Assembly (NCBI GenBank): GCA_050613775.1
Contig: JBODTK010000127.1
Location: 186,001 to 250,000 of the forward strand
Length of the DNA stretch: 64,000 bases
Direction of reading: 5' to 3'
DNA from: Neocallimastix sp. 'constans'
Lineage: Eukaryota
The notes below the pieces were generated by a model. That model was not told the origin of the DNA. It worked only from the letters and a program-made list of their open reading frames with translations, and did no database searches. Within the stretch, counting starts at the first letter, position 1. The number at the start of each line of letters is the position of its first letter. The position numbers and the translations under genes are program-made. This document shows positions 16,838-37,589 of the stretch, in pieces.

Positions 16838-16872
<35 letters not shown>

Positions 16873-16881
16873 TTTATTATA

Positions 16882-16914
<33 letters not shown>

Positions 16915-18410: not shown

Positions 18411-18615
18411 CTTAAAATAAAATTTTTTTTTTTTTTTTTTTATAAATAAAAGTTATTTAATAATATAAATTTGAGAAAATATATATATATATATATTTTA
18501 TAAAAAGGTTATTTAATAATATAAAATTGAATATATATATTTTTTTATAAAAAAAAAAATATTTAATAATATAAAATTGAGGAAAAAAAATTATTTAATA
18601 ATATAAAATTGAGAA

Positions 18616-18671
<56 letters not shown>

Positions 18672-18709
18672 AAAATAATTATTTAATAATATAAAAATAA
18701 AAAAAATTT

Positions 18710-18752
<43 letters not shown>

Positions 18753-18834
18753 AAAATATTATTTAAAAATATAAAGATTGTGTAACGATATCTTATGCCA
18801 CACAAAATATTTTTATGAGAAAACTAATAAAAAA

Positions 18835-18875
<41 letters not shown>

Positions 18876-19092
18876 AAAAATATAAACGAAAGATTTAATA
18901 AAAAATAAAAAAAAATAAATTAAAATAAGTTTCCTCTGAAACTTTTACAAAAGTAATAAAAATAATAAATTTAAGTTTCCTCTGAAACTTCTTTAAAAAA
19001 AATAAAATCTTTGTTTCCTCTGAAACAAAATATAAAAAAATCTATTCTTTATAATATTAATTTATGTGTTTATTTCATATTTTTGTGTGTGC

Positions 19093-19109
19093 GCCCGGAT
19101 TCTCCACCA
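19093..19109 (-). promoter_or_regulatory. PBS of C (tRNA-Ala)
   Basis: TGGTGGAGAATCCGGGC, 5 nt from the LTR; the same PBS occurs in the second copy at ~60785-60801. Confidence 0.85.
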
Positions 19110-20723
19110 ATTTCTGATATGGGCACAGATCACACACAATATTTTAAAAACACAATATTAAATATTATAAATAAATTTTTATTAGTTTAAAAGTATTTTA
19201 TAAATTTTTATTTTATTTTATTGTCCTTTTCAAAAGAAAGAAAATTTCTTCCTTTTATAGTTTTTTACATGAATCTTGAATTGAACATTAACATATACAT
19301 TTATTTATATTATTCTATTATGAATGTTATTTTAATATTAATATATTTTAAAATTAACCTATTCTAAAGTATCTATTTTAAAATATAGTTGTATAATTAT
19401 TAATGATTTATTTATATTTAAAATTTTAACTATCTATTCTAATAATGTTTTAATTTATCAATTAATATATAATTTAATATTCTTGTAAATTATTAATATT
19501 ATATTCTCATAAAGTTTATTATTGTAAAAAGAATACAGAAAATAATAATCTATTTTAGAGAAAACAATAAAAATAATAGTTAGTATTGTCAATCGATTTA
19601 ATTTTATACAGAATTAAATATTTCTGTATTTATTTTATTAAAAACAATTTATAGATAATTATTCTTATTATAAATAATTTTATTATAAATAAATTTTTTT
19701 TTTATTATAACTATTTTAATTTTAAATAATTTCATTATTATAAATATTTTATATTTTTTTTCTTTTTTATCATTTTTATGTATGCTTATTTGAAATAAAT
19801 AAGCTAGTTCCGGATCAAGAGTGTAAGAATCTATAATTATTTGTTAGCAAATAATTATATTTTCTTAGTTAAGTTATTATAACTATAACTTTATTTAATT
19901 ACATATAATATTTATTAAATTTATTTAATTTAATTTTAAATATTCATTAATTTAACAAAATTTATTTAATAATTTTAAATAATATATTTACAATATGTTA
20001 AATTCTCTACTGTAACTAATGTATTTTGTATTGTATTTTATTCTGTATTTTATAATGTATTCTGTATTTTATAATGTATTCTGTATTTTATAATGTATTC
20101 TGTATTTTATTAACTATTTAATTTTATATTTTTAATATAAGGATAAATTATATGATCGAAATATCTTTTATTATTTTATTCTTTTATTTTCGATCATTAG
20201 ATTAGATTAGAAAATCGGTTAATTAAGATTTTTTCCAATTACTTTTTAGAAGTAATCGGTTTTACTTAATTAATGCGATGATCGATATGGATAGAATATC
20301 GATCGAAAACTTATCTAGGTTTTTCTATCTAATCTTTTCCTAGATAAGAGATTTGTTAAGATTAGAAAACCCTTTCTTATTTAATCTTATTTTCATAAAA
20401 AAATATAAATAAGGCTCTTGAGTTCTCTTTGAGAAATCAAGAGTTATTATTATAAAAAAACATAGTTATAATAGTAACATTTTTATATTTTTAACTTTAA
20501 TAAATTAATAAAAATATTTTATTCAAAAACATATTTTTAAGATCAATTTATACAAACAATTCTTCTCTTACATTTTGCGTTATTATTATAATTAATTTTA
20601 TAATAAACTCTACATTAAAGGTAAAAAAAATTTATTTTATTTTATTTTCTCAACTTAATGAATTAGTCGTTAAGTTGTAGTTAATAATTCTATTTTGAGT
20701 TAGTTCTTAATAGAATTATTACA

Positions 20724-20735
20724 ATAATAACTCTT
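20724..20735 (+). promoter_or_regulatory. Self-priming PBS of D (ATAATAACTCTT)
   Basis: No TGG tRNA-type PBS. Exact complement AAGAGTTATTAT lies in the LTR at 20439-20450, ~30 nt after TATAAATAAG (~20404). Confidence 0.85.
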
Positions 20736-20869
20736 CTTAGATTAGCTTAGGGTTAGATAAAATGTGAAAAAATTTTAGAATAGTGTAACATTGGAAATTT
20801 TATTAGTGAATTAGTCTATTGAAATTATATATATTAGAATACAATAATAATATATAGCTAGAGTGGCAC

Positions 20870-20901
<32 letters not shown>

Positions 20902-21187
20902 TTTTATTAGCAATTTTGATTGAAAAAAAAAAAAAAAATTATATTAAAAAAAAAAAAAAAAAATTTATATTAAAAAAAAAAAATTTTTTTTAATAGTTAA
21001 TAATAGAATAATAAATTAATATTATAGAATAGTTTTAGATTATAATAATTTAATTAAAATAATTTTAGAATAAATATAATAATATATAATAGATTAGAAT
21101 TATTTTAATAATTTAGAATTAATAGTATTATAGAATAATAAATAATTTTAGATAATATAATTAAGAATAGAAAGAATAATTTAAAAT

Positions 21188-21241
<54 letters not shown>

Positions 21242-22057
21242 ATAATAATAATAAATAAATAAAGAAATAAATAAAAACATTAAAAAATAAATTAAAAATA
21301 ACAAACTGAGAAGGTAATAATACCTTCATATATAGAGTTAGCCATCTAATTGGGGATGGTGAGTACATTTTTAGGTAGTAATAAAGGAAAGGTCTCCTTT
21401 TCCTATACCGTAGCGGTTTGTACTGTACGGAAATGCAGTATTTCACGTGAAAGTATAGGTTATCCGAATGTAGCTCTAGCGAATAAGGAACTCTTGGTCA
21501 CCGAAGGCCTCGAGGTTCTTCAATATTATGTATTGAAGTAAAATTATATAGTTTTAATTTTAATAATGGGTTTTAACAGTTTGTTTATCCCAAACAAAAT
21601 TGGTTATAGCAGTTATGTTTTTTTATGCTTGATTATATAAAACTGCTATGGAAAACATAAAATATTTTTTTTATGTTTTAATGGATCACTTTTGCCGGTT
21701 TTTGAATGTTGTAAGGCATAAGAAAGTGATATTGAATTTTAATTAAAATAATACTAAATATTGTATTTATGCAGAAGTTTATAATAAAGGATAAGTTTAT
21801 AATAATATTTTGTTAATCATTTTAATTTAATTTCCAAGTACGTAGTTGACCGTTACTGGTAGGCTGTAACATTAGACCTACACCTCAGCCTTTTGGTTGA
21901 TAAACCAAATGAACGGTAACACGGGAAGGAAGAAATTAAAGTGTATTCTATAAAATATTTATTAATCAAAATCCTTATTATAATTCTTAATTTTGTGTAA
22001 TAAAAATGTCCATTTTGTTAACTCTATCCTATTTTTATCTATACTAAAGGCACAAAA

Positions 22058-25000
22058 ATGGATTTCAATAGTAATAAACAAGCAATTTCCTCAAGTGAAG
22101 TTAATAATTCCTATCTCCATGATGAAAATGCATCCAAACTTATTACTGCAATTGCTGACTTCATTCCTGCTTTCTTTTCTCCTAATGGTGTCCTCCAAAA
22201 GGAAAATGAAAGCAATAAACTAAATATATTAGAAATTTTAATTCAAAGTGAAGATTTCTTTAAGGAGCATCCAAATTCTTTTCAAAAGGATGAACTAAAA
22301 AGTTCTTTTGTTATTAATAAACTTACTGGTACCGCCAGAAAATGGGGTCTTTCTCTTTTAACTGATGGTACTCTAAAGAACCTTGAATTTAGTAAGTTTA
22401 AGAAGCTCTTACTGGATAACTTTGATATTGGGAATGAAAGGAAGCAAAAATATGTCATCATGGAAAAGTTATGGAAATTGAAACAACTTCAACTAGGAAA
22501 TGTTGCTGAATATACTATTGAATTTCGGAGATTGGCTGGACGTTTAGGATGGCCCGACGAAGTTTTAATTGATATAATCGGTAAGGGTCTACTTGACAAA
22601 GTCCGCGAAGAGTTTGATAAACTCGAAAAGCCATCTACTCTTTTTGAAGCTACCAACATTATTATTGGAATTGATAAGAAGTGTTTTTTGGAAAGTCGTC
22701 TACGCCACAATCAAAAAAATAAATTTAATGGAAAAATGTCGTTTCATAGGAAGAGAAACGATTTACTAAAATCAGAAAAGAATTCTAAACATTCTCATTT
22801 CAGAAAAAATAAGTCTAAAAACGACATACTTTCAGCAAATTACACCCCGAATATTAAAACAACAATCACAACTACCTTCTACCTTGATATTAATGGAAGA
22901 AATATTAAGGCAAATCTATTAATTGATTCGGGTTCTGCCAGAAGTTTTATTTGTAAAAACTTCGCAAATTCTAATAGATTACCTGTGTTAGGACTCAATT
23001 CCCAAATCAACATCCAACTTCCTAATGGGAAAAGTATGAATATCAGACAAACTACTAAGCCCCTTAAATTAAAATTTATGGATCATAAGGAAACTTTTGA
23101 ATTCTGCATTGCTAATCTATCTCTTCAGGGCATTAATGGTATTCTTGGAAGGGATTGGTTATCCGTTCACAATCCTTTCATCGATTATAAAAATAATAGA
23201 ATCTACTTCCTTGGTAGATACTGTGGCTCACATTGCCCATCCTCCAAAAGTAATAAGTTTTTTAATCAAAATAAAAATATTACTGCTTCAATGTTGGAGA
23301 ATTCAGAAGAAGATTCAGTATTACCAAATTCGGCTTTCGATACAGATATCTCAGATTCTGATTTATGTGCTGCAATGATTAATTCAGAAGAAGTAAACAC
23401 TGACGTTCAGGGAAAAGAAGAGATTATTAATAAATACTATTCGGATCTTAAAATAGTATTTGAAAAGAAACAAGCTGAGAACTTACCACCTCATCGTGAC
23501 TATGATATTGCTATTGAGCTTATTCCTGGTGGACAACTTTATTTTGGTCCAATATACTCTCTTACTGTACAAGAACTTAAAGCTTTAAAGGATTATATTA
23601 AGGAAAACTTAAAAAAGAAATTCATTAGGAAGTCAAAATCACCAGCAGGTGCTCCTATATTATTTGTAATGAAACGCGATGGTACCCTTAGACTCTGTGT
23701 AGATTATCGCCGATTAAATGCTATCACAATCCGTAATAGCTACCCAATTCCAAGAATAAATGACTTGATTGAATCCTTTCAAGGAGCTAAGATATTTACT
23801 CGTCTTGACCTTAGATCTGCTTATAACCTAATCAGAGTTAAAGAAGGTCACGAATATCTTACTGCTTTTAGAACCCCTTTAGGACATTTCGAGTATCTCG
23901 TTATGCCTTTTGGTCTTCGAAATGCCCCTTCGGTTTTTCAACGTTTTGTACAAGATATCTTCAGTGATATCATTGGTTCTTTCATGCAAGTCTATCTGGA
24001 CGACATCATTATTTACTCTAACAACGAAGAAGAACATATTAAACATGTTAGGATCGTTCTTCAACTTCTCATCAACAATGGATTATATGCTAAATTAGAG
24101 AAATGTGACTTCCATGTTACTAAAACCACTTTCTTAGGCTTCACTGTTTCTGTAGATGGTCTCACTATGGATAAGGATAAGGTAAAATCTGTTCTGGATT
24201 GGCCTATTCCGAAGAATCAAAAGGAATTACAAAGTTTTCTAGGCTTATGTAATTTCTATAGAAAGTTTATCAATAATTTTGCCAAAAATATGGAACCTCT
24301 TCGTCGACTTTTAAGGAAAAATACTACATTTAATTGGGATGAATCAGCAAATGAAGCTTTTAATAAATTAAAAGAATCTTTTAAAGCTGATGAAGTGCTC
24401 ATTTTTCCTAATCCAGAGAAAGAATTCATCGTTGAAACAGATGCTAGCGACTTTGCTGTCGGTTGCATACTTTCTCAGGTTAGTGACACTGATAACTTAT
24501 TGCATCCCGTAGCCTTCCATTCTAGATCCCTCAATAAAGCAGAAGTCAATTATACTATATATGATAAAGAACTTCTTGCTATAATTACTGCGTTTGAAAC
24601 TTGGAGGCATCATTTAGAAGGCGCAAAATTTCCTGTTCAAGTAATAACAGACCACAAGAACTTATTGTATTTTAAGAAACCCCAACATTTAAATCAAAGA
24701 CAAATTCGTTGGAGTCTCTTTTTATCAAAGTTTGACTATAGGATTGCATTCAGATCAGGCGCTAAAAGTGGCAAACCAGATGCTCTTTCAAGACGCCCAG
24801 ATTTTAAATCTGACTCTTCATCTGAATCACAACCTGTAATTAACAATAATGCTTTCTGTTGTGCTATAAATGACAATATTAGTAGTCTTATTGAAGCACA
24901 GAAAGCTGATAATTATTGTAAAAATATCCTCTTAAAAATAAGGGATAAGTCAAACAACATCAAAAGTTCTTTATTTTCCTTCGTCGATGGCGTACTTCAC

Positions 25001-26101
25001 TTTCAGAAGCGTATTATTATCCCTTCCAGTCTCAGGGCTAGACTTTTAAAGTCTTTCCATGATGCACCCACTAGTGGCCATCAGGGGGTAGATAGGACCT
25101 TTGAAAAACTCAGAAGGAACTACTGGTGGCCTAATATGAAAAAAGATATTTCAAATTATGTGGCTTCTTGTGATGTTTGTTGTAGAAATAAAATCCGTCG
25201 TCATAAACCTTATGGTAAACTAATACCACTTCCTACTCCTACAAAACCCTGGGAAGTTATTGGCGTCGATTTTATTGTTTCATTGCCTTCTTCACAAGAT
25301 TGCACTTGTATCATGGTTGTTTCTGATCATTTAACCAAAATGATTCATTTAGTACCCTGCTCCGATGTTCCTTCTGCCGACTTAACTGCCAAGCTCTTAC
25401 TTTTCCAAGTCTTTAAGTATCATGGTTTTCCTAAAGTGATTGTGTCTGATCATGGTTCCCAATTCTCTTCTCAATTTTGGACTTCGTTGTGCGATGCTAT
25501 TCGTGCTAAACCAAGACTTGCTACTGCTCACCACCAACAATCAAATGGTCAGGTTGAACGGGCTAATGCTGTAATAGAGCAATATCTTCGCTGCTATTGT
25601 TCTTCTGCTCAAAACGAATGGTGTTTCTACCTCCCTTTATGTGAAATGTCCTACAACAACTCCATTCACAAATCAATAGCTCAAACTCCTTTTCATGCTA
25701 ACTATGGATTTGACCCAAATTGTGTTATTGATTCACCACCGATTCTGCTAAAAGATAGTGCTTCTGTTCTTACTAGGGATTGGTCTTCACATTTCAATGC
25801 CCTTCGTCAACATCTAGTTAAAGCCAAAGAAGATTTTAAGAAATATGCTGACAATAAAAAATCTGTAGGACCTGACTTTAAGGTAAATGATTTGGTTATG
25901 CTTAGAAGATACTACTTTACGAATGAACCCTCTAGAAAATTATCCACTCAATATCTTGGACCTTTTAAAATCATCGAGAAAAGGGAAAGAATGAATTACC
26001 GTTTGGAACTTCCAGAGAACTTACATCTCCATCCGGTATTTCATATCTCACAATTGGAACCATATACTAAAAGAAATGAAGACTTAATGGAAACATCATA
26101 A
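22058..26101 (+). CDS. Gag-Pol polyprotein of D (Tf1/Tf2-like, no chromodomain)
   Basis: 1347 aa; LIDSGS, LPPHRDYD, YLDD, ETDASD, integrase ending in GPF...HPVFHISQLEPY. Confidence 0.95.
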   Translation: MDFNSNKQAISSSEVNNSYLHDENASKLITAIADFIPAFFSPNGVLQKENESNKLNILEILIQSEDFFKEHPNSFQKDELKSSFVINKLTGTARKWGLSLLTDGTLKNLEFSKFKKLLLDNFDIGNERKQKYVIMEKLWKLKQLQLGNVAEYTIEFRRLAGRLGWPDEVLIDIIGKGLLDKVREEFDKLEKPSTLFEATNIIIGIDKKCFLESRLRHNQKNKFNGKMSFHRKRNDLLKSEKNSKHSHFRKNKSKNDILSANYTPNIKTTITTTFYLDINGRNIKANLLIDSGSARSFICKNFANSNRLPVLGLNSQINIQLPNGKSMNIRQTTKPLKLKFMDHKETFEFCIANLSLQGINGILGRDWLSVHNPFIDYKNNRIYFLGRYCGSHCPSSKSNKFFNQNKNITASMLENSEEDSVLPNSAFDTDISDSDLCAAMINSEEVNTDVQGKEEIINKYYSDLKIVFEKKQAENLPPHRDYDIAIELIPGGQLYFGPIYSLTVQELKALKDYIKENLKKKFIRKSKSPAGAPILFVMKRDGTLRLCVDYRRLNAITIRNSYPIPRINDLIESFQGAKIFTRLDLRSAYNLIRVKEGHEYLTAFRTPLGHFEYLVMPFGLRNAPSVFQRFVQDIFSDIIGSFMQVYLDDIIIYSNNEEEHIKHVRIVLQLLINNGLYAKLEKCDFHVTKTTFLGFTVSVDGLTMDKDKVKSVLDWPIPKNQKELQSFLGLCNFYRKFINNFAKNMEPLRRLLRKNTTFNWDESANEAFNKLKESFKADEVLIFPNPEKEFIVETDASDFAVGCILSQVSDTDNLLHPVAFHSRSLNKAEVNYTIYDKELLAIITAFETWRHHLEGAKFPVQVITDHKNLLYFKKPQHLNQRQIRWSLFLSKFDYRIAFRSGAKSGKPDALSRRPDFKSDSSSESQPVINNNAFCCAINDNISSLIEAQKADNYCKNILLKIRDKSNNIKSSLFSFVDGVLHFQKRIIIPSSLRARLLKSFHDAPTSGHQGVDRTFEKLRRNYWWPNMKKDISNYVASCDVCCRNKIRRHKPYGKLIPLPTPTKPWEVIGVDFIVSLPSSQDCTCIMVVSDHLTKMIHLVPCSDVPSADLTAKLLLFQVFKYHGFPKVIVSDHGSQFSSQFWTSLCDAIRAKPRLATAHHQQSNGQVERANAVIEQYLRCYCSSAQNEWCFYLPLCEMSYNNSIHKSIAQTPFHANYGFDPNCVIDSPPILLKDSASVLTRDWSSHFNALRQHLVKAKEDFKKYADNKKSVGPDFKVNDLVMLRRYYFTNEPSRKLSTQYLGPFKIIEKRERMNYRLELPENLHLHPVFHISQLEPYTKRNEDLMETS

Positions 26102-27021
26102 TTAAACAGAGCAATGTAAGAATCTATAATTATTTGTTAGCAAATAATTATATTTTCTTAGTTAAGTTATTATAACTATAACTTTATTTAATTACATATA
26201 ATATTTATTAAATTTATTTAATTTAATTTTAAATATTCATTAATTTAACAAAATTTATTTAATAATTTTAAATAATATATTTACAATATGTTAAATTCTC
26301 TACTGTAACTAATGTATTTTGTATTGTATTTTATTCTGTATTTTATAATGTATTCTGTATTTTATAATGTATTCTGTATTTTATAATGTATTCTGTATTT
26401 TATTAACTATTTAATTTTATATTTTTAATATAAGGATAAATTATATGATCGAAATATCTTTTATTATTTTATTCTTTTATTTTCGATCATTAGATTAGAT
26501 TAGAAAATCGGTTAATTAAGATTTTTTCCAATTACTTTTTAGAAGTAATCGGTTTTACTTAATTAATGCGATGATCGATATGGATAGAATATCGATCGAA
26601 AACTTATCTAGGTTTTTCTATCTAATCTTTTCCTAGATAAGAGATTTGTTAAGATTAGAAAACCCTTTCTTATTTAATCTTATTTTCATAAAAAAATATA
26701 AATAAGGCTCTTGAGTTCTCTTTGAGAAATCAAGAGTTATTATTATAAAAAAACATAGTTATAATAGTAACATTTTTATATTTTTAACTTTAATAAATTA
26801 ATAAAAATATTTTATTCAAAAACATATTTTTAAGATCAATTTATACAAACAATTCTTCTCTTACATTTTGCGTTATTATTATAATTAATTTTATAATAAA
26901 CTCTACATTAAAGGTAAAAAAAATTTATTTTATTTTATTTTCTCAACTTAATGAATTAGTCGTTAAGTTGTAGTTAATAATTCTATTTTGAGTTAGTTCT
27001 TAATAGAATTATTACAAAGAG

Positions 27022-30000
27022 TGTAAAGAATTAAATTTAAACTTAATTAAATTTAACCCTTTTCTACAATTAATACTAATATTAATCGAGAAATTAAAAA
27101 AAAAGAAAATACTTAACGAAACTTAAAATAGGGTAGGAGTTTATTATAAGAGATTAGTTCAAATAAAATTTTTATTAAAATATTTTTTATTAAAAATAAT
27201 TTTTATTTAGATTTTGTTATTTTTAAAAAATTAAAAATTTATTTTGTTTATTATTATAATTATATTCTTATAATAATAACTCTTGATTTTCAAAATAAAG
27301 AAAATCAAGAATTATTTATAGTAAAGTTCCAAATCTTAATGAATAACTTTTTAGGAAAAGATTTGGGAGAAAAACCTAAAAAGTTTAATGATCAATTATT
27401 AATAAAATTGATCATATGTTAATTGAATAAAAACCGATATTTTCCAATCGGAAAACTTCAATTAACATTTGTTTTATTTAAACAATGTCAATTATACATG
27501 ACATTGTTTTATTTTAATTAATTTTTTAAATATTAATTATTCTTTTTTCATTTGATTTGTTACATTATGATTTTAATATAATTTTATAATTATTTCTAAA
27601 TTATAATTCTATAATTTATATTAGATTTGTTTAAAATTATATTAATGTAACAATTATTTAAATTAAAACTTAACATATAATTATCAAATGAATTTTAACA
27701 AATATAAAAAATATTAATGTTTAATTATTTTAATATTATTAATTAATACAATGATAAAGAATAATAATTTTACAATATTAATTTTAAATTATTAATAATA
27801 ATTTTATATTAAAAATATTTTATAATAAAGTTAATAAATTTTATTAAATAATTATTATTTTATTTAATAAAGATTAATAATTATTTTTTATTTTAATAAA
27901 GATTAATAATTATTTTTTATTTTAATAAAAATTAATTATTATTCTTTACATTGCACCCTTTAGGATGTGTTCCCATAATTGGAATGCTCTTTTAAATCTT
28001 GATTTCTTTCAACGTAGGGTTCCAATTGGGAGATGTGGAATATTGGATGTAAGTGTAAATTACTTGGAAGTTCCAACCGGTAATTCATGCGTTTTAATTT
28101 TTCCGTTATTCTGAATGGACCTAAGTATTGTGAAGCTAGCTTCTTCGCCGGCTCGTTGGTGAAATAATATCTTTTTAACCACACTTTATTGTTAATATTA
28201 AAATTTGGACCATGTTGTTTCTTGAGGTCATTATACTTTTTGAAATCTTCTTTAGCTTTGACCAGATGAGCTTGAAGAGATTGAAAATGGGCCGACCAGT
28301 CTCTTGTAAGAACTGAAGCATTATCCTTCAAAAGAATTGGAGGGGAATCAATAATACTATTTGGATTAAATCCAAAATTGGCATAGAAGGGAGAGACACC
28401 AATAGACTGATGGAGCGAATTATTATAGGCAAATTCACATAAAGGCAGGTAATAACACCATTCATTTTGTGCTGAAGAGCAGTAGCAGCGAAGATATTGT
28501 TCCACAACGGCATTTGCACGTTCAATTTGGCCATTAGACTGTTGGTGGTGAGCAGTGGCGAGATTAGGCTGAATATGCAAAGCAGAACAAAGAGAAGTCC
28601 AAAATTCCGAAGAAAATTGACTACCATGATCGGAAACGATCGTTTTAGGGAACCCGTGATATCTAAAAACGTTGAAAAGAAGAAGCTTAGCAGTAAGATC
28701 TGCTGAAGGAACATCCGAACAGGGAACCAAATGGATCATTTTGGTGAGGTGATCCGAAACAACCATGATACACGAGCAATCTTGAGAACTTGGCAATGAG
28801 ACAATAAAGTCAACACCGATAATCTCCCATGGTTTTTTAGGAACCGGGAGAGGAAGAAGTTTACCATAAGGCTTATGTCTTCTGGTTTTGCATCTTCCGC
28901 AAGTTTCACAAGATAGGATGTAGTTTTCAACATCCTTCCTCATGTTAGGCCACCAATAATAACGTTTTAATTTATCCATAGTTTTATGGATTCCTTGGTG
29001 ACCGCCTAAAGGGGAGTCATGAAAAGATTGTAAAATCTTTGTTCTAAGAAGAGATGGCACTATTATTCGTCCTTGGAAGTGTAGAACACCACGAATAAGA
29101 CTAAACAATGAGCTTTTGATTTCTTTTGATTTAGATTTTAGTTTGCTCATTGTTTCTTTGCAGAATTTGTCTTGTTTTTGTAAATCGATTAATTTATCAA
29201 TTTTTTCATAAGCTGTACAGCATATTGGGTTGTCATTGGGAATGGCACATGCTATTGGGAAATTATTTTCTTGATAATCCGGCCTTCTTGATAAGGAATC
29301 TGGCTTTCCACTTTTAGTTCCAGGTCTGTAGGAAATACGAAAATCAAATTTAGATAAGAAGAGACTCCATCGTATTTGTCGTTGATTTAAATGTTGTGGT
29401 TTCTTTAAGTACAACAAGTTTTTGTGGTCCGTTATAACTTGAATTGGATACTTCGCACCTTCTAAATGGTGCCTCCATACGTCAAAGGCTGTTATAACGG
29501 CAAGGAGTTCCTTATCATAAATTGTATAGTTCTTTTCATTCGAGTTAAGAGACCTTGAGTAGAACGCAATAGGATGAAGTAGCTGATCATTTTCTGAGAT
29601 TTGAGATAAGACACAACCAATAGCATAGTTGCTTGCGTCTGTTTCGACAATAAATTCTTTGTTATAGTCTGGAAAGATAAGGATTTCATTGGATAAAAAA
29701 GATTTTTTGAGATTTTTGAAAGCATTTTCGGCTTGATCATTCCAGATATATTCACTATTTTTCTTCAAAAGTATGCGGAGAGGTTCCATAATTTCGGCAA
29801 AATTTTTTATAAATCTTCGATAGAAATTACAAAGTCCAAGGAAACTTTGTAATTCCTTAACATTCTTAGGAGTTGGCCATTCAATTATCGATTTTACTTT
29901 ATTTTGATCCATTGTGAGGCCGTTAACCGAAATTGTAAATCCAAGGAAAGTTGTTTCTTTAACATGGAATTCGCATTTTTCTTTCTTAACATATAGGCCA

Positions 30001-32105
30001 TTTTTTATTAATAACGAAAGCACATTTTTAACATGAACGATATGATCTTCAAGATTATTTGAGTAAATAATTATATCATCCAAGTAAACTTGGACGTGAT
30101 CACCAATAAGTTCACCAAGGACATCTTGAATAAAATGCTGGAATACGGACGGAGCATTTCTTAATCCGAAGGGCATCACCAAGTATTCGAAATGGCCGAT
30201 GGGAGTTCTGAATGCTGTGAGATATTCATGGCCTTCTTTAACCCTAACAAGATTGTAGGCCGATCTTAGGTCTAACTTTGAAAATATTTTGGATCCCTTA
30301 AAGGCTTCAATCAAGTCATTAATTCTTGGTAGAGGATAGCTATTTCTAATAGTTACTGCGTTTAGCCTCCGATAATCAACACAAAGTCTGAGGGTTCCAT
30401 CTGGTTTTCTTACAAATAAAATTGGAGCACCAGCGGGTGATCTGGATTTTCTTATGAATCCTTTAATAATATTTTCTTTGATATAATCTTTAAGTGCACT
30501 CATTTCGACTTGTGACAATGAGTAAATTGGACCAAAATAGAGTTGACTTCCAGGGATAAGATCAATGGATATGTCGTATGGCCTATGTGGAGGCAATTTG
30601 TCAGCCTCCTGTTTTTTAAACACAAGAGTTAGATATTTGTAATATTTGTTAATTATTTTTTCTGTCCTTGAAAGTTCTTTTTTAATTTCGGGCATAGCTC
30701 CGCATATATCATTTTCGTAAAGTTCATCTTCTGAAATGGAAGAAGGAATTATTGAATCAGTAGTATCGTCAACCATTGGCGCGGCTACTTCAGAGGAATG
30801 AAAAACAAATTTGTTTCCTTTTGCTGAAGGACAATGATTACTACAGAAACATTCTAAGAAATATATCTTGTTATTTTTAAAATCGATATAAGGATTGTGC
30901 TTAGAAAGCCAATCTCTTCCGAGGATTCCACTAATTCCATTAAGCTGTAAGTTTCCCACAAGAAATTCATATTTCTCTTCGTGATCTAAGAATTTAATTT
31001 TTACTGGTTTTGTTACTTGCTTAATAGTCATACTCTTACTATTAGGCAATTGGATGTTTATGGGGGAAGTAAGTCCTGAAGTCGGGATCCTATTAGCAAT
31101 TATGAAGTTCTTACACATAAAGCTTTTGGCTGATCCAGAATCAATAAGAAAGTTTATTTTTTGTTTTCGTTCGTTTAAAAGAATTACAAACGTAGTAACC
31201 ATAGTAGTTGACTTGTCCGGAGTGTAGTTTGCAGAGAGGACTTCTTTCTTCTGTTTATTGTTAAATTTTGATTTAAAGAAGTTTTTATTACTTGTCTTAT
31301 TTAACTCATATTTCTTTCTTCCAAAAGTTTTACTTTTTCTTCTAGGATCTTCAGAGCTACAACCTCTTAAACTATTTTCGATGTAGCATTTCTTATCAAT
31401 GTTTATTATTATATTGGTTGCCTCAAATAAAGTCTTTGGGTTTTTTACTTTATCAAATTCATCTCTGACTTGATCTATTAGTCCCTTTCCAATAATATCT
31501 ATAAAGACACTATCTGGCCATCCCAGTCTTGAAGCAATTTTTCTAAATTCGATGGTATATTCTGCGGCTTTCCCCAACTTTTGTTGTTGTAAGTTTATAA
31601 GTTTATTTATAAGAATATATTTTTGTTTCTTTTCGTTTCCGGAGTCAAAATTTTCAAGTAAGAGATTTTTGAATTCTTCATACTTTAAAGTGCTCAGGGT
31701 ACCATCCACAAGCAAAGATAACCCCCATTTCTTTGCAAGTCCTCCTAACTTATTAATTACATAAGTATTTTTGGTTTCATCTGACAGGAAAGAATTTGGA
31801 TGGTCGGCAAAGAAATTTTCGCTCTGTATAATTGTTTCTAAAACACTTCCATTGTTCTTCTTCTCACTTTCCTTTAGTAGCATCCCTCCAGGTGAGAAAA
31901 AGGTAGGAACGAACTCTGTTATAGCCTCAATGAACTTAGAAGCATCCACATTTTTATTTATTTTGCTTATTTCTTCCTTTTGGTTCTCAGTAGTTTCCAT
32001 ATCTTATAATTATATATTTTTTTTTTTTTGAAATTAATTATTTATTAATTTATTTATCTAGATTCAAAATTATCTAAAATATATTGTTAGAGCAGTATAT
32101 TATAT

Positions 32106-32156
<51 letters not shown>

Positions 32157-33198
32157 TATTATTATTATAATTATTACTATTTTATCTATTATTATTACTA
32201 TTATTATTACTATTTCTATTATTATTATTACTATATATTTTTTTTTTTTTTATAAATAAGAGTTATTATTGTAAAGAATTAAATTTAAACTTAATTAAAT
32301 TTAACCCTTTTCTACAATTAATACTAATATTAATCGAGAAATTAAAAAAAAAGAAAATACTTAACGAAACTTAAAATAGGGTAGGAGTTTATTATAAGAG
32401 ATTAGTTCAAATAAAATTTTTATTAAAATATTTTTTATTAAAAATAATTTTTATTTAGATTTTGTTATTTTTAAAAAATTAAAAATTTATTTTGTTTATT
32501 ATTATAATTATATTCTTATAATAATAACTCTTGATTTTCAAAATAAAGAAAATCAAGAATTATTTATAGTAAAGTTCCAAATCTTAATGAATAACTTTTT
32601 AGGAAAAGATTTGGGAGAAAAACCTAAAAAGTTTAATGATCAATTATTAATAAAATTGATCATATGTTAATTGAATAAAAACCGATATTTTCCAATCGGA
32701 AAACTTCAATTAACATTTGTTTTATTTAAACAATGTCAATTATACATGACATTGTTTTATTTTAATTAATTTTTTAAATATTAATTATTCTTTTTTCATT
32801 TGATTTGTTACATTATGATTTTAATATAATTTTATAATTATTTCTAAATTATAATTCTATAATTTATATTAGATTTGTTTAAAATTATATTAATGTAACA
32901 ATTATTTAAATTAAAACTTAACATATAATTATCAAATGAATTTTAACAAATATAAAAAATATTAATGTTTAATTATTTTAATATTATTAATTAATACAAT
33001 GATAAAGAATAATAATTTTACAATATTAATTTTAAATTATTAATAATAATTTTATATTAAAAATATTTTATAATAAAGTTAATAAATTTTATTAAATAAT
33101 TATTATTTTATTTAATAAAGATTAATAATTATTTTTTATTTTAATAAAGATTAATAATTATTTTTTATTTTAATAAAAATTAATTATTATTCTTTACA
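27022..33198 (-). mobile_element. Full-length Tf1/sushi-like Gypsy element 'E' (self-priming)
   Basis: 929-bp LTRs at 27022-27950 and 32270-33198, apparently identical. TSD AAGAG. PBS at 32258-32269 complementary to an LTR-internal 12-mer. Confidence 0.95.
27960..32000 (-). CDS. Gag-Pol polyprotein of E
   Basis: 1346 aa, clearly homologous to the D polyprotein; DSG, YLDD, TDAS, integrase; no chromodomain. Confidence 0.95.
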   Translation of the reverse strand: METTENQKEEISKINKNVDASKFIEAITEFVPTFFSPGGMLLKESEKKNNGSVLETIIQSENFFADHPNSFLSDETKNTYVINKLGGLAKKWGLSLLVDGTLSTLKYEEFKNLLLENFDSGNEKKQKYILINKLINLQQQKLGKAAEYTIEFRKIASRLGWPDSVFIDIIGKGLIDQVRDEFDKVKNPKTLFEATNIIINIDKKCYIENSLRGCSSEDPRRKSKTFGRKKYELNKTSNKNFFKSKFNNKQKKEVLSANYTPDKSTTMVTTFVILLNERKQKINFLIDSGSAKSFMCKNFIIANRIPTSGLTSPINIQLPNSKSMTIKQVTKPVKIKFLDHEEKYEFLVGNLQLNGISGILGRDWLSKHNPYIDFKNNKIYFLECFCSNHCPSAKGNKFVFHSSEVAAPMVDDTTDSIIPSSISEDELYENDICGAMPEIKKELSRTEKIINKYYKYLTLVFKKQEADKLPPHRPYDISIDLIPGSQLYFGPIYSLSQVEMSALKDYIKENIIKGFIRKSRSPAGAPILFVRKPDGTLRLCVDYRRLNAVTIRNSYPLPRINDLIEAFKGSKIFSKLDLRSAYNLVRVKEGHEYLTAFRTPIGHFEYLVMPFGLRNAPSVFQHFIQDVLGELIGDHVQVYLDDIIIYSNNLEDHIVHVKNVLSLLIKNGLYVKKEKCEFHVKETTFLGFTISVNGLTMDQNKVKSIIEWPTPKNVKELQSFLGLCNFYRRFIKNFAEIMEPLRILLKKNSEYIWNDQAENAFKNLKKSFLSNEILIFPDYNKEFIVETDASNYAIGCVLSQISENDQLLHPIAFYSRSLNSNEKNYTIYDKELLAVITAFDVWRHHLEGAKYPIQVITDHKNLLYLKKPQHLNQRQIRWSLFLSKFDFRISYRPGTKSGKPDSLSRRPDYQENNFPIACAIPNDNPICCTAYEKIDKLIDLQKQDKFCKETMSKLKSKSKEIKSSLFSLIRGVLHFQGRIIVPSLLRTKILQSFHDSPLGGHQGIHKTMDKLKRYYWWPNMRKDVENYILSCETCGRCKTRRHKPYGKLLPLPVPKKPWEIIGVDFIVSLPSSQDCSCIMVVSDHLTKMIHLVPCSDVPSADLTAKLLLFNVFRYHGFPKTIVSDHGSQFSSEFWTSLCSALHIQPNLATAHHQQSNGQIERANAVVEQYLRCYCSSAQNEWCYYLPLCEFAYNNSLHQSIGVSPFYANFGFNPNSIIDSPPILLKDNASVLTRDWSAHFQSLQAHLVKAKEDFKKYNDLKKQHGPNFNINNKVWLKRYYFTNEPAKKLASQYLGPFRITEKLKRMNYRLELPSNLHLHPIFHISQLEPYVERNQDLKEHSNYGNTS

Positions 33199-33214
33199 AA
33201 GAGTTAGTAAAATT

Positions 33215-33303
33215 GTTATTGTAGCCTGGTGGTAATACAACATGACAATGAAGCCGAACTTCTTAGGTTCGACTCACACCCTTTCCCAATCTAAATTATT
33301 TTT
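33215..33303 (+). promoter_or_regulatory. tRNA-like RNA polymerase III internal promoter (A-box/B-box-like) without a cloverleaf
   Basis: TAGCCTGGTGG at 33222 and GGTTCGACTCA at 33266 (44-nt offset, as T8 to G52 in tRNA); T5 run at 33299-33303. Acceptor and T stems do not pair. Confidence 0.45.
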
Positions 33304-33707
33304 AGTTAATTAATTAAATTATTGTAGAAAGTTCTAGAGTTTCTTTGGTTAATATTATATAACTAAATGAAACAAGAAAGTTCTATTTTAATGATTATTT
33401 TATCATTTTTCTATAAGATTCATTTTCTAGAAAGAAAACTTAATTTTTCGAACTTTCGTTAATATTAACTTTTTCCGAAACTGTTTTTCCGAAAAAGTAT
33501 AAATAAGCGTGAATTTCTCAACAAAAAATAATTTTTCTTTGTGCTTTTATTAACTAGTTAAAAGTAATTCGAAATATTACAATAACTAATTAATAATAAA
33601 AAATAATAATAAATTTTATATTTTAATAAAAAATATTAATAAAACAAATTTTTTTTAAGAAAACGAATTACTTATTAGTGTAGACCTATTGGGTGTAAAC
33701 CGTTACA
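33220..33707. mobile_element. Possible solo LTR or SINE-like unit (TGTA...TACA)
   Basis: TGTA/TACA ends, internal palindromes and TATAAATAAG at ~33498. Its right end abuts the truncated pol frame of F. Flanks do not form a TSD. Confidence 0.4.
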
Positions 33708-36700
33708 ATAAATAATATTAGTAATCCTATCCAAAATAATAATTCCACTGATAATATTATAAATAACAAACGAATTATTAAACCTACGAGAAGAATAAAT
33801 AAAAAAGTCCTTAACAATAATATTAAAATTGATAATAATAATGAAAATAAAAATAAAAAAAATGAAGTTCATAATAACGCACAGCAAAGAGAAAGAATTA
33901 AGAATAAAATTAATGATAATGATTCAAGTAATAAAATTAATAATATGAAGACAGTTAATAATGTTAATAATATGGACAAAATGAAGAATAAAAATTTAAC
34001 GGAAAAAGAAAAGAAACAAAAACCTACCATACAGATGATGAGAAACCGCGAGCAATATAATATTTGCGAAGATTTATTAAATATTCCAGCAAATATTACA
34101 ATTGGACAACTCCTTAACATTTCAAAAATTTCTAAAGATGAATTAATTAAAGGTATTAAGAATTCAAAGCAAAATAATGAAAATATCATTAATGCTGCTA
34201 ATTCTACTATAGATAATAACTATAATAATAACGATAATAGTAGTAACAATGAAAATTATAGTGATATTAATTATAATAGTAAAATAGCTAATAATTTAAA
34301 TAATAATAATATTGTACACGAACATGATGTTGCAGTTGTACGTGGATATATTAATGGCTATCCTGCTTCAATTTTTATAGACGCGTGTAGTAATGCAAAT
34401 TTAATATCACGTAAATTTTTAAATAAATTTGTTAAAAATTATAAAATTATTGGCCATGATAAAAGTACAATTAGACAAGCGATGGTTGATGATATAAGTC
34501 GTGTTTATGATATTGTTCGCTTAGCTGTTAAACTTGGTTCTGTTGAATTTATTACTGATTTTAAAATTTCCGATAAAGACGATCCTTTTTATGATGCAAT
34601 TATTTCTCTTAAAACACAATCTGATAACAGGATTCTTATTGACACAATTCATAAAGTTCTTGCGTATATGAATATGGACGATAAATTAGTACCTATTAGT
34701 AATATAGAAGATATAAATACCTTCCGTTCTCAGTCTTTATTATGTGTTTCTCCTGAACCAAAAATTGATATTGTTGAGGCTACTTTATTTGTTGATGCTA
34801 ATGAACCTAATTCTAATATTAGTGCTAAAGAAAAAGACGATGTAATTAATTCTATTATTAATCAATTAAAATTTAAAAATAAAAAAGATTATAAAAAATT
34901 TTGTAGATTATAAAAAAAATTTGATGATATTATTGCCATTTCTTCTGATGATTTGGAACCTTCTAAATTATTTCCTCATCATATTATTTTAGAAGAAAAC
35001 TCTATGCCAATTAAACAAAAGGCGTATAAAATTTCTCAGGTTCAATCTAATGCTTTAAAGGAAGAACTTCGTAAATTATTGGAGAAAAAGTTAATTGAAC
35101 CTTCTCATTCTCCATGGGCTTCTCCTGTTGTTTTAGTTTTAAAGAAAAATGGTAAATGGCGTCTTTGTGTTGATTTTAGGAAGTTGAATGATATTACTAT
35201 TAAAGATGCCTATGCACTCCCAAAAATTCGTGAAATCTTTGATGCTTTGAAAGATGCAAAAATATTTTCTTCTATTGATTTATTTAGTGGTTACCATCAA
35301 ATTCCTATGTGGGCTGAAGATATGGAAAAGACTTCTTTTACAACAAAATTTGGTAATTACTATTTTAAAGTTATGCCCTTTGGTTTAACTAACGCGCCTG
35401 CTACCTTCCAGCGTGAAATGAATAGAATCTTCTTTGATTTAATTAATGATTGCGTTCAAATATACTTAGATGATATTATTATTTATTCCGATAGTTTTGA
35501 AAATCATCTAATTCATCTTTCCAAAGTTTTTAATATTTTAAGAAAATATAATTTAAAATTAAACATAGAAAAATGTCATTTCTGTCAAACAGAAATTGAA
35601 GCTTTAGGTCATAAAGTTACTACTGATGGTTTACTTCCTCTAGATAAGAAAACGCTTTCCATTATGAATATGACACCTCCTACTAATGTATCCGAACTTC
35701 GTTCTTTTCTAGGCATGACTGGTTATTATAGAAATTTCATTGACAATTACTCTGCTAAATCTGCACCTCTTTGTTCTTTGTTAAGGAAGAATACTCCATT
35801 TGTTTGGACTGATTCTCAAAACAATAGCTTTCAATTATTAAAGAATTGTTTAATCAGTGCCCCTATCCTCTGTTACCCTAAATTTGATATTCCATTTATT
35901 ATTCGTTCCGATGCTTGTGGTTATGGTATTGGTGGTGTTCTTTTACAGCTTTATGATGATAATATTGAACACCCTATTTATTTTGTTAGTAGAAGTTTAA
36001 AAAAATCTGTGAAAAATTATACTACAACTGAACTTGAAGGCACTACTGCTTATTATTGCTTAGTCCAATTCGAACATTATATTTTAGGTAATCCATTCAA
36101 AACAATTCTATATACTGATCACAAACCTTTAGTTTCTATTATTAAAAGTTGTGAGCCGAATACTCTTAAACATCAACGTTGGTGTGATAAATTTAGTAAA
36201 CTTCAAGTTGATATTGTTTATCACCCTGGTAAAGCTAATTTGATTGCTGATGCATTGTCTAGAGTTGTTCGTAAAGACTTCTCTGTTACTAATGTTTGTA
36301 TTAGTTCTAATTCTCTTCTTAATAGCGATATTCTGTTCACTTCTGTCAACAATTCTAATAGTTCCATTGATTCCTCCATTGTTAATAATTCACCTATTGA
36401 TAGCTCCATTCTCACCCAGAAGGAGAACGAAAAATTCATTTCTGAATTTATGTATAAATTTTTAACCGAAAAAATAGTTAAAATTGATAATAAATTATAT
36501 TTTAGAGATGATAATAAATTAAGAAAAATTATTGATGATCCCTATGAAAAAATTAAAATTATTACTAAAGAACATAGAGTGGGTCATGAAGGTATTCAGA
36601 AAACTTACGAAAGAATAAAAGAAAAGTATTATTGGAAAAATTTAATAATAGATGTAAAAAAATATATTTCGCTATGCAAAATATGTCAACTAAATCGTTC

Positions 36701-37589
36701 TGAGCCATTGCCGAAACCAACAGAAAAATATGGAACTCCTGTAGAAGCTCCTTTTGTTAGAGTTGGTTTAGATATTATTGGACCCCTAAAAGAAACACAA
36801 CAAGGTAATAAATATATTATTGTTTGCGTAGATTATTTTACAAAGTGGGTAGAAGCTAAACCACTTCGTACTACTACTTCACAGGACGTAACAAATTTCT
36901 TAGTAGAAGTTTTTAGTAGACATGGTATACCAGAACTAATTATTACAGATAATGGTGTACAGTTTACTGCTGATTATACTAAAATATTTTTAGATCTATA
37001 TGATGTGTACGTTCATTTTGTTAGTACATATCATCCAGAATCAAATGGATTAGTGGAAAACAGAAATAGAGAAATAGGAAAGCAATTAAGAAATTTCTCG
37101 AATGATAACAAACATTGGGATATTTTGTTACCGCTGGCTTTATGGGCTTTAAGAACCAGTAAATCTGCTGTAACGGGTTATTCAAGTTTTGAACTTTTAT
37201 ATGGACGTAAGGAATTACTACCTATAGATATAAATTTAAGAAATTCAATTTTGGAAGATAATAGTAGAACTATGGACGAAATATTAATGGAAAGGTTCGT
37301 TGAGCATGCTAAATGGGTTGAAAAAGCAGCAAAAAAAATGCTTGGAACAATCCATTATTGGAAAACTCGAAGACAAGCTCAACAAAGTATGGAAAATAAG
37401 AAAAATTTTAAAATTGGTGATTTAGTAAAAATAAGAAATCACCAACGAACTAAACTTGAACCGTATTTCCTTGGTCCATATATAATTAAGGACATATCTT
37501 GGAATACAGTTCAATTACAGGATGCTATGGACGGTACAAAATTGGAAAGAAACGTCCATATTAAAAATATATTACCTTTTAATGAATGA
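33708..37589 (+). pseudogene. pol: Pol of F with one in-frame stop (34911-34913)
   Basis: ORFs 33945..34913 and 34953..37589 are in the same frame; FIDACS protease, YLDD, RSDAC, integrase, GPY. Confidence 0.85.

What the first reader, a model, noticed from the sequence alone, without database searches (positions are those of the whole stretch)
33204..33303. Candidate anchor of the stack: a tRNA-spaced A/B-box unit whose predicted start coincides with the insertion point
Seen: A-box-like TAGCCTGGTGG (33222) and B-box GGTTCGACTC (33266) at tRNA spacing, then T5. The stack ends at 33203/33204, 18-19 nt before the A box. Known: Pol III starts about 18-20 nt upstream of the A box, and yeast Ty3 integrates within 1-2 nt of that start through TFIIIB. 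The unit does not fold as a tRNA; it forms two hairpins (33212-33249, ~33253-33273) and may be the end of a solo LTR or a SINE head. Inference: a non-tRNA Pol III unit, possibly mobile itself, creates the landing pad.
Basis: partly seen in the sequence, partly recalled or inferred. Interest (0 to 1): 0.75.

Follow-up and report, generated by a model that had tools for sequence, protein, structure and literature searches.

The report
tRNA-like landing pad inside an LTR
A tRNA-gene-like promoter motif near the start of a repeated retrotransposon end-piece (an LTR) sits exactly where six other retrotransposons have landed one after another, likely because those elements home in on RNA polymerase III start sites as yeast Ty3 does.

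Summary
A-box-like TAGCCTGGTGG (33222), B-box GGTTCGACTC (33266; spacing 44) and T5 (33299-33303) are there. Such a pair is expected 0.001 times per shuffled window. It is not a tRNA.

The unit is not free-standing. Contigs of other copies show it is bases 18-117 of a ~521-base multi-copy LTR ("X"). X has a 13-base head, then AGAG, and ends at 33707 with a 7-base terminal inverted repeat.

The stack is larger than described: E(-1), solo LTR E0, and four intact Gypsy elements E1-E4 with 100% identical LTR pairs. They are separated only by GAGT, GAG, AGAG or AAGAG. One history explains every junction: six successive insertions next to X's body, cutting at 33203|33204 or 33204|33205, 10-11 bases before box-derived tRNA position 1.

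This matches Ty3-type integration at Pol III start sites, and X resembles Helenus-type LTRs with tRNA-derived promoters. Pol III activity is untested. A second LTR abutment (60960-61967) has no boxes beside it. No other genomic copy could be fetched. Verdict: a new variant of known kinds, confidence about 0.5.

The parts
33204..33303 (+). tRNA-gene-like module: predicted start about 33204-33207, A-box-like 33222-33232, B-box 33266-33275/6, T5 33299-33303. It equals bases 18-117 of LTR X.
   Evidence: motifs, spacing, chance. (no tRNA, no Rfam family, fold not significant).
33200..33707 (+). Body of LTR X (AGAG plus bases 18-521). Its 13-base head is not in the window. HSE-like GAAnnTTC motifs lie at 33327-33339 and 33426-33437, and TATAAATA at 33498-33505. 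The tail ...CCGTTACA ends at 33707.
   Evidence: contigs of X14 and X3 continue leftwards from 33202/33200 with the same purine-rich tract, CCA and a TG-start head. Contig breaks lie at 33708 and 33712. Contig depth is 1570-1873 against 507-661 for the neighbouring interior in X5; the tail; the head is absent from the window.
33199..33203 (.). AAGAG, right copy of the 5-base target duplication of E4. The left copy is 27017-27021, which also serves as the right copy of E3.
27022..33198 (-). E4: intact Ty3/Tf1-like Gypsy element. LTRs 27022-27950 and 32270-33198 are 929 of 929 identical. One ORF of 1347 aa (27960-32003).
   Evidence: Its integrase is closest to Ty3 integrase (7q5b, E 8e-56) among solved structures.
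19822..27016 (+). E3: intact Ty3/Tf1-like Gypsy element. The LTR pair 19822-20723/4 and 26115-27016/7 is 100% identical. ORF of 1359 aa. The AAGAG duplication has E2's terminal A as its first left base.
11967..19817 (-). E2: Gypsy element. LTRs are 703 of 703 identical. It has a tRNA-3'-end-type primer binding site left of 19115. ORFs of 1497 and 429 aa. Target duplication AGAG.
4655..11963 (-). E1: Gypsy element. LTRs are 771 of 771 identical. ORFs of 1296 and 309 aa. Target duplication GAGT; the right copy is GAG plus the first T of E2, or the old flank.
3633..4650 (.). E0: solo LTR of 1018 bases (TG...CA), flanked by GAGT (3629-3632) and GAGT (4651-4654).
1..3628 (-). E(-1): right part of a further Gypsy element that runs off the window. 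Gag with a CCHC knuckle lies at 2-1002 on the minus strand. The LTR tail ...CTTTATCA ends at 3628. The inner LTR border is unresolved (about 2494-2924).
   Evidence: The boundary is inferred from the CA end, the repeated GAGT, and the likeness of its last 18 bases to E0's tail.
33708..37589 (+). E5: interior of another Gypsy element lying right behind LTR X. Gag (33699-34913) and pol (34914-37589) are in one frame, separated by one stop codon. It is probably not X's own interior.
   Evidence: other copies of this interior have a different sequence before 33708, and other copies of X have a different sequence behind 33712.

Best explanation
The 33204-33303 unit is bases 18-117 of a ~521-base multi-copy LTR and carries an A box, a B box and a T5 run at tRNA-gene spacing without a tRNA fold. 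It likely binds the Pol III factors TFIIIC and TFIIIB, which would guide Ty3-like integrases to its predicted start site, where six elements inserted in turn.

Shown:
- The motifs and their spacing.
- The LTR context.
- The six abutting elements and their shared target bases.

Inferred from the junction bases: the order E(-1), E0, E1, E2, E3, E4. Each new element lands between the previous one and X's body and re-duplicates the same few bases. The X-side cut is at 33204|33205 for the first three and 33203|33204 for the last three.

Inferred from known biology: Ty3 integrase is positioned by TFIIIB bound at -15 to -32, so that strand transfer falls within a few bases of the Pol III start. That start lies 10-13 bases before the mature tRNA 5' end. 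Here the cuts lie 10-11 bases before the position that the A box defines as tRNA position 1.

The module itself is most like the tRNA-derived promoters in LTRs of Helenus elements. Because T5 follows the B box by 23 bases, any Pol III transcript would be about 100 bases long and could not serve as the element's genome. The module would act as a factor-binding site, and as a landing pad.
For: 1. An A+B pair this good is expected 0.001 times per window, and 1 is seen, on the strand that points away from the stack. T5 follows.

2. It meets the box signature reported for Helenus LTRs: TRGCY...YGG and GGTTC (compared).

3. The junctions read ...CA GAGT [E0] GAGT [E1] GAG [E2] AGAG [E3] AAGAG [E4] AAGAG T.... 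A single left-to-right history with 4-base duplications (E0, E1, E2) and 5-base duplications (E3, E4) reproduces every base.

4. The reverse order would need an A five bases before 33204 in the original LTR. Both other copies seen (2 of 2, runs X14 and X3) have T there. The left members are a solo LTR and a partly unresolved element; the right four are intact with identical LTRs.

5. At least four unrelated LTR sequences (E1, E2, E3, E4, plus E0) of two Gypsy lineages hit the same 1-base window. This points to a host-defined site.

6. The geometry matches the literature. Ty3 integrates 1-4 bases from the start site, which lies about 10 bases before the mature tRNA. Tj1, Tyl3, Ylt1, Tyl6 and Tca8 in other fungi behave alike (passages). 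Yeast leaders are 10-12 bases and hotspots lie within 1 base of the start site (section 7). TFIIIB binds at -15 to -32 and contacts the integrase C-terminal domains (passages).

7. E4's integrase is closest to Ty3's among solved structures, E 8e-56 over residues 16-400 of the 413 submitted.
Against: - No transcript or factor-occupancy data exist. The one RNA contig over the unit (X15, 268 bases, depth 5) runs on leftwards past 33200, so it looks like read-through into an LTR and says nothing about Pol III.
- The A-box-like motif has G where the recalled consensus has A. None of the four tRNA stems can form.
- The window holds no tRNA gene. Hence none of these families is seen at a real Pol III gene.
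- A second abutment exists: an E2-like LTR (60807-60960) directly followed by an E3-like solo LTR (60964-61967). The E3-like LTR's CACGA duplication overlaps the E2-like LTR's last two bases. It has no A/B box within 800 bases to its right.
- The left end of the stack and X's 13-base head lie outside the window, so an anchor on the left cannot be excluded.
- X appears multi-copy, and it is not explained why this copy took six hits.
- E2's integrase is closer to a spumavirus integrase (E 9e-34) than to Ty3's (4e-25).
- No listed contig bridges 33198/33204, so the junction rests on the assembly alone (only part of the pieces were listed).
Confidence: 0.5

Rival explanations
1. LTR-end-directed integration. 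These Gypsy integrases, or a factor bound to LTR termini, would prefer the boundary of an LTR already in the chromosome. Any first insertion would then seed a growing head-to-tail pile, and the A/B boxes would be bystanders.
For: All six junctions of the main stack lie within 0-2 bases of an existing LTR terminus. So does the independent E2-like/E3-like junction at 60960-60964, where no box motif is nearby. Re-duplication of the old target bases follows from this model as well.
Against: It does not explain the founding insertion, which lies 13-17 bases inside LTR X rather than at its end. It also does not explain why the founding site falls at the start predicted from an A/B pair expected 0.001 times per window. 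Other LTR termini in the window have no abutting element: the X tail at 33707, both Copia elements, and the right end of the E3-like solo LTR. I know of no precedent (recalled; not searched specifically).
Confidence: 0.25
2. Another sequence-specific DNA-binding host protein, in the manner of Sap1 guiding Tf1 in fission yeast, would bind the 5' region of LTR X. A candidate site is the imperfect palindrome 33212-33249. It would fix the integration point a set distance away.
For: E3 and E4 carry the Tf2-type SH3 domain. Single-base-precise, Sap1-guided Tf1 integration is recalled from the literature; only a search listing was seen. The insertion point lies about 8 bases before the palindromic stem.
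Against: E1 and E2 lack that domain and belong to another lineage, yet hit the same base. The palindrome's fold is no better than shuffles. This model leaves the A-box, B-box and T5 arrangement and its exact tRNA spacing as coincidence.
Confidence: 0.15
3. There is no targeting. The pile would be an ordinary nest in a transposon-rich region, or an assembly artefact, and the motif a decayed tRNA-derived remnant of no consequence.
For: The whole window is transposon-rich. No contig shown bridges the E4/X junction. Perfectly identical LTR pairs could partly reflect assembly polishing.
Against: Six elements separated only by the same 3-5 bases, each with matching duplications, cannot arise from random nesting. 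Five of the six junction-flanking LTR sequences are unrelated, so mis-joining of repeats is unlikely.
Confidence: 0.07

Closest known systems
Ty3 of Saccharomyces cerevisiae and other fungal Ty3/Gypsy elements that integrate at Pol III start sites (Tj1, Tyl3, Ylt1, Tyl6, Tca8/beta)
   Same: Integration falls within a 1-base window about 10-11 bases before box-derived tRNA position 1. E3 and E4 make 5-base duplications. Both orientations occur. Repeated hits at one target leave stacked elements and solo LTRs. E4's integrase is closest to Ty3's among solved structures.
   Different: The target here is not a tRNA gene but a tRNA-like module inside another element's LTR. At least two Gypsy lineages use the site, three elements with 4-base duplications. 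The host is a very AT-rich eukaryote. It may be an anaerobic gut fungus; that is an inference only. Dependence on TFIIIB is untested.
Helenus (TRIMp3): non-autonomous LTR retrotransposons with a tRNA-derived sequence in their LTRs (Kojima 2024, PMC10886601)
   Same: It is an LTR with TG...CA ends that carries conserved box A (TRGCY...YGG) and box B (GGTTC) without encoding a usable tRNA. It is multi-copy and occurs in a fungus-like host.
   Different: Known Helenus LTRs are at most 323 bases and the elements at most 1263 bases. Fungal ones are reported only from Pucciniales and a few Agaricomycetes and are linked to Copia. X is about 521 bases. Its ends resemble the Ty3/Tf1-like E3 and E4 LTRs. 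It also has a TATA box and a T5 run right after the module. Its interior was not seen, so TRIM status is unknown. No role as an integration target is described in the parts of that paper I read.
Cassandra: plant TRIMs with a 5S rRNA-derived Pol III promoter in the LTR
   Same: A Pol III-type internal promoter is carried inside an LTR (as described in PMC10886601; listing).
   Different: Cassandra has a type 1 (5S) promoter, not a type 2. It is a plant element, and its Pol III transcript is thought to serve the element. Here T5 would end transcription after about 100 bases.
Tf1 and Sap1 in Schizosaccharomyces pombe
   Same: A Tf-type element is positioned with single-base precision by a DNA-bound host protein. 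LTRs themselves carry the binding site (recalled; only the listing was seen).
   Different: No Sap1-like motif was tested here. The nearby motif is a Pol III-type one.
tRNA-derived SINE
   Same: An A/B-box head derived from a tRNA gene, without a tRNA fold, and mobile.
   Different: The repeat runs on for about 400 more bases to an inverted-repeat LTR end. In other copies it is preceded by a polypurine tract. No LINE-type tail or A-rich end is present.

Membership tests
tRNA gene (Rfam RF00005 / ARAGORN) | Cloverleaf with four stems and an anticodon loop | tested here: not met
   ARAGORN finds 0 genes in the window, also with introns allowed. Only poor calls appear at 60-80% thresholds. There is no Rfam match even at E<=10. 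With box-based numbering, 3 of 7 acceptor pairs and 2 of 5 T-stem pairs can form (read).
Type 2 (tRNA-type) Pol III transcription unit | Internal A box and B box at 30-60 base spacing | tested here: met
   A box matches 8 of 9 and B box 9 of 10 specified positions of the recalled consensus; spacing is 44. Expected 0.001 per window.
Type 2 (tRNA-type) Pol III transcription unit | Run of four or more T as terminator shortly after the B box | tested here: met
   TTTTT at 33299-33303, 23 bases after the B-box match. T runs are common in DNA this AT-rich, so this is weak on its own.
Type 2 (tRNA-type) Pol III transcription unit | Bound by TFIIIC/TFIIIB and transcribed by Pol III | not testable with these tools
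   Only contigs of RNA runs were available. They cannot show starts, ends or the polymerase.
Helenus / TRIMp3 | tRNA-derived sequence with conserved box A (TRGCY, YGG) and box B (GGTTC) inside an LTR | tested here: met
   TAGCC...TGG and GGTTC are present, matching the criterion. LTR status comes from the head, polypurine tract and contig breaks and the 7-base terminal inverted repeat.
Helenus / TRIMp3 | Miniature non-coding element: two short LTRs with a short interior carrying a primer binding site and polypurine tract (311-1263 bases in all) | tested here: inconclusive
   The LTR is about 521 bases, longer than any reported (at most 323). The interior is not in the window. Only about 30 bases on each side are visible.
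Ty3-like integration at Pol III start sites | Insertion within a few bases of the start site, about 10-13 bases before the mature 5' end | tested here: met
   Cuts at 33203|33204 and 33204|33205 lie 11 and 10 bases before box-derived position 1 (33215) (compared). The start site itself is predicted, not measured.
Ty3-like integration at Pol III start sites | Family members generally lie next to Pol III genes | tested here: not met
   There are no tRNA genes in the window. The other E2-like and E3-like copies (58641-61967) have no A/B box beside them. The whole genome was not available.
Ty3-like integration at Pol III start sites | Integrase contacts TFIIIB (TBP/Brf1) through its C-terminal domains | not tested
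   Only sequence likeness of E4's integrase to Ty3's was seen. No complex was modelled.
tRNA-derived SINE | Short element (100-700 bases) with a tRNA-like head and a LINE-related or A-rich tail | tested here: not met
   The repeat ends in an LTR-type inverted repeat at 33707. In other copies it follows a polypurine tract.

The most novel reading that the evidence does not exclude
A retrotransposon LTR carries a decoy tRNA-gene promoter that recruits the Pol III machinery. Wherever it spreads, it creates new high-affinity landing pads for several families of start-site-homing Gypsy elements. One mobile element would thus seed self-growing transposon piles and steer other elements away from real genes.
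Probability: 0.35. Interest if true: 0.8.

Novelty: new variant of a known kind. Interest (0 to 1): 0.6.

Why it matters
Pol III start-site targeting is the textbook case of a transposon choosing a safe site, but the known targets are host genes. If an LTR-borne tRNA-like module is used as a target, the target itself is mobile. That would help explain how transposon-dense islands form in a compact, very AT-rich genome. It would extend Helenus-type LTRs to a new host group and give them a possible role as factor-binding sites. It would also show two Gypsy lineages converging on one base.

The six-step stack is a rare natural record of repeated integration at single-base resolution. Its order of events can be read from the duplicated bases.

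Tried and rejected
- Whole genome: none is held, so the proposed copy census could not be run.
- Other copies or relatives in public collections: a 20-base stretch of the unit gave 0 matches in metagenome contigs and in viral contigs.
- Protein-guided scans: with E4's polyprotein in viral contigs, 13 pattern matches and 0 confirmed. With E5's pol in metagenome contigs, 94 pattern matches and 0 confirmed.
Only 33000-34600 was laid. All runs were contigs, so depth, RNA starts and strand are not informative. No listed contig bridges 33198/33204, which proves nothing because 4548 pieces and 676 loose ends were not listed.
- The RNA contig over 33200-33403 (X15) cannot tell Pol III transcription from read-through.
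- ARAGORN at 60-85% thresholds gives calls over the region and 45 calls in the window with kilobase 'introns'. I rejected these as noise.
- Rfam at E<=10 gave two irrelevant weak matches.
- Hairpin structure: not better than shuffles.
- Searches in the window for X's head, for the polypurine-tract context and for X's presumed interior start gave no true match.
- Earlier notes of this scan: none for this genome or sequence.
- Reading the unit as a primer binding site or a retro-copied tRNA 3' end: rejected, because the distance from the T-loop motif to the nearest CCA is off by two bases and no LTR start follows (read).
- E5 as X's own interior: rejected, because other copies diverge at 33708/33712 and E5 has a different LTR-like start after its own purine tract near 37812.
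- No complex prediction, structure prediction or large protein search was run.

Full report
**Setting.** The window is very AT-rich: 14-36% G+C in 2-kb steps. It is full of retrotransposons. Pfam finds Gypsy-type RT, RNase H and integrase in eight long frames, Copia-type domains in five, a MULE/FLYWCH transposase, and one fragment of an old-yellow-enzyme gene. No whole genome is held. Runs that share 33204-39500 are labelled animal-faeces metagenomes and metatranscriptomes, plus coded organisms A and B (20 of the 23 listed runs; the 3 runs of organism C, listed for sharing a sample, hold next to none of its words). An anaerobic gut fungus is my guess from that and from the base composition, nothing more.

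**The observation.**
- TAGCCTGGTGG lies at 33222, GGTTCGACTC at 33266 (44 bases from start to start), and TTTTT at 33299-33303.
- The B-box pattern occurs once in the window against 0.08 expected.
- An A+B pair with at most one mismatch each and tRNA-like spacing occurs once. The mean is 0.001 per window in 2000 block shuffles that keep local composition.
- The unit is not a tRNA. ARAGORN finds nothing in the window, with or without introns. Rfam finds nothing at gathering scores and nothing relevant at E<=10 around the unit. Calls at relaxed ARAGORN thresholds are noise.
- With numbering taken from the boxes, only 3 of 7 acceptor pairs and 2 of 5 T-stem pairs could form.

**The stack.** Self-comparison shows four complete Gypsy elements:

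| Element | Coordinates | Strand | LTR pair identity |
|---|---|---|---|
| E1 | 4655-11963 | - | 771 of 771 |
| E2 | 11967-19817 | - | 703 of 703 |
| E3 | 19822-27016 | + | 100% |
| E4 | 27022-33198 | - | 929 of 929 |

- E3 and E4 are Ty3/Tf1-like, with a capsid domain, a Tf2-type SH3 domain and a single frame. E1 and E2 belong to another lineage.
- To the left lies a 1018-base solo LTR, E0 (3633-4650).
- Left of E0 is the right end of a further element, E(-1). Its gag runs off the window.
- Between neighbours there are only 3-5 bases: GAGT, GAGT, GAG, AGAG, AAGAG. AAGAG also precedes base 33204.
- The five LTR sequences are unrelated apart from their last few bases.

**Order of events.** One history reproduces every base. 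E(-1), E0 and E1 each duplicated GAGT. E2 duplicated AGAG, whose A is E1's last base. E3 duplicated AAGAG, whose first A is E2's last base. E4 duplicated that same AAGAG. In this history every insertion went between the previous element and the sequence to the right. The right-hand cut was at 33204|33205 three times and at 33203|33204 three times.

The mirror history, with an anchor on the left and E4 first, needs an A five bases before 33204 in the original sequence. The two other copies seen both have T there. The leftmost members being a solo LTR and an unresolved element also fits left = oldest. All four intact elements have identical LTRs, so LTR divergence gives no order.

**What the unit belongs to.** Contigs of four runs were laid on 33000-34600.
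- In runs X14 and X3, contigs that match from 33202 or 33200 rightwards continue leftwards with the same sequence: a purine-rich tract, CCA, then a TG-start head of 13 bases, then AGAG (or AAAG). That is the layout of a polypurine tract followed by the start of a 3' LTR.
- The head (TGTAACG...) is the inverted complement of ...CGTTACA ending at 33707.
- At 33708 and 33712 the contigs of other copies part ways in both directions.
- So 33204-33707 is bases 18-521 of an LTR, which I call X. The stack sits between its bases 17 and 18.
- X's head resembles the heads of the E3 and E4 LTRs.
- Contig depth over the unit is 1570 in X5 and 1201 in X3, against 507-661 and 355-462 for the neighbouring interior. 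It is about equal in X14 (18.5 against 14.8-16.4). The tool warns that depth is a poor copy-number measure. The different flanks are the firmer sign of several copies.
- The head is not in the window, so the left end of the stack lies beyond base 1.
- The Gypsy interior behind X (E5, 33708-37589) seems not to be X's own. Other copies of each have other neighbours. E5 is followed by its own purine tract and a different LTR-like start near 37812.

**Mechanism.** The cuts lie 10-11 bases before the base that the A box defines as tRNA position 1 (33215).
- In yeast, tRNA leaders are 10-12 bases. Ty3 hotspots lie within one base of the start site, and 36 tRNA genes carry earlier Ty3 insertions (section 7 of PMC6673722).
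- A review lists Ty3 at 1-4 bases from the start. It lists five further fungal Gypsy elements within about 5-30 bases upstream of the start site or of the mature tRNA sequence (passages of PMC5911963).
- The Ty3 intasome structure shows TFIIIB at -15 to -32 holding the integrase through its C-terminal domains (passages of PMC8632968).
- E4's integrase is closest to Ty3's among solved structures (E 8e-56). E2's is closer to a spumavirus integrase.
- I therefore think the module likely binds TFIIIC and TFIIIB, and that these integrases are placed by TFIIIB. This step is inferred, not shown.
- Two earlier notes of this scan describe stacked solo LTRs at tRNA starts in budding yeasts. They are leads that agree, not evidence.

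**Known relatives of the module.** Kojima (2024, PMC10886601; abstract, Results part 1, Discussion and legends read) describes Helenus. These are miniature LTR elements whose LTRs hold a tRNA-derived sequence with conserved TRGCY...YGG and GGTTC and no usable tRNA. They are found in rusts, a few mushrooms, animals and one plant. X meets the box signature. It differs in that its LTR is longer (about 521 against at most 323 bases), it has a TATA box (33498-33505) and heat-shock-like motifs, and T5 follows the boxes. Its interior is unseen. The parts of that paper I read say nothing about such LTRs being integration targets. The listings show no such report either (titles and abstract starts only).

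**Against the Pol III reading.**
- A second abutment exists. An E2-like LTR (60807-60960) is followed after CGA by an E3-like solo LTR in reverse (60964-61967). The solo LTR's CACGA duplication overlaps the last two bases of the E2-like LTR. No A or B box lies in the 800 bases to the right.
- Either its anchor was lost (the E2-like element is broken by two Copia insertions), or LTR ends themselves attract insertions. That rival does not explain why the founding insertion lies 13-17 bases inside X at the predicted start.
- No tRNA gene is in the window.
- No expression or occupancy data could be had.
- No other genomic copy could be fetched.

**Verdict.** My confidence in the Pol III landing-pad mechanism is about 0.5.

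Noticed in passing
window 60807-61972: Second tight abutment. A shortened E2-like LTR (60807-60960) is followed by CGA and an E3-like solo LTR in reverse (60964-61967), with a CACGA duplication that includes the last two bases of the E2-like LTR. No box motif lies beside it.
   Followed up: partly
window 45743-58609: Two Copia elements lie back to back: 45743-52106 (+), LTRs 99.7% alike, and 52171-58609 (-), LTRs 98.4% alike. Both are inserted in (ATT)n and are 64 bases of (ATT)n apart. This hints at microsatellite-directed insertion. The tract matches the Asn-rich repeat of an E2-like gag (58641-60658 is 93% like 16728-18725).
   Followed up: partly
window 1259-1470 and 2499: A 43-base tandem array inside E(-1) repeats a GGTTCGAA...TCGACC motif. 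The B-box core GGTTCGA occurs 6 times in the window against 1.65 expected, all on the + strand: three in this array, one at 2499, one in E1's primer-binding region (11178), and one in the unit.
   Followed up: partly
window 20724-20745, 32245-32269, 38176-38200: E3, E4 and an LTR remnant ending at 38175 have no tRNA-type primer binding site. Instead they share an ATAATAAC/AACTCTTATT-like stretch right after the LTR. This may mean self-priming as in Tf1 (inference).
   Followed up: no
window 11168-11192: E1's primer-binding region is complementary to a T-loop-like GGTTCGAA stretch rather than to a normal tRNA 3' end. The primer may be an internal tRNA region.
   Followed up: no
window 34911-34913: Gag and pol of E5 lie in one frame, separated by a single stop codon. 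The review describes the same for Tj1.
   Followed up: no
window 33240: Contigs of all four runs laid read C where the window has A. This is a private change of this copy, between the two boxes.
   Followed up: no
window 33327-33339, 33426-33437, 33498-33505: LTR X carries heat-shock-element-like GAAnnTTC motifs and a TATAAATA box downstream of the tRNA-like module. This looks like an ordinary Pol II promoter in the same LTR.
   Followed up: no
window 38384-38487 and 38644-39420, 43072-44523: An (ATTT)n microsatellite of about 100 bases, a 258-aa fragment of an NADH:flavin oxidoreductase (old yellow enzyme) gene on the minus strand, and a MULE transposase with a FLYWCH finger.
   Followed up: no
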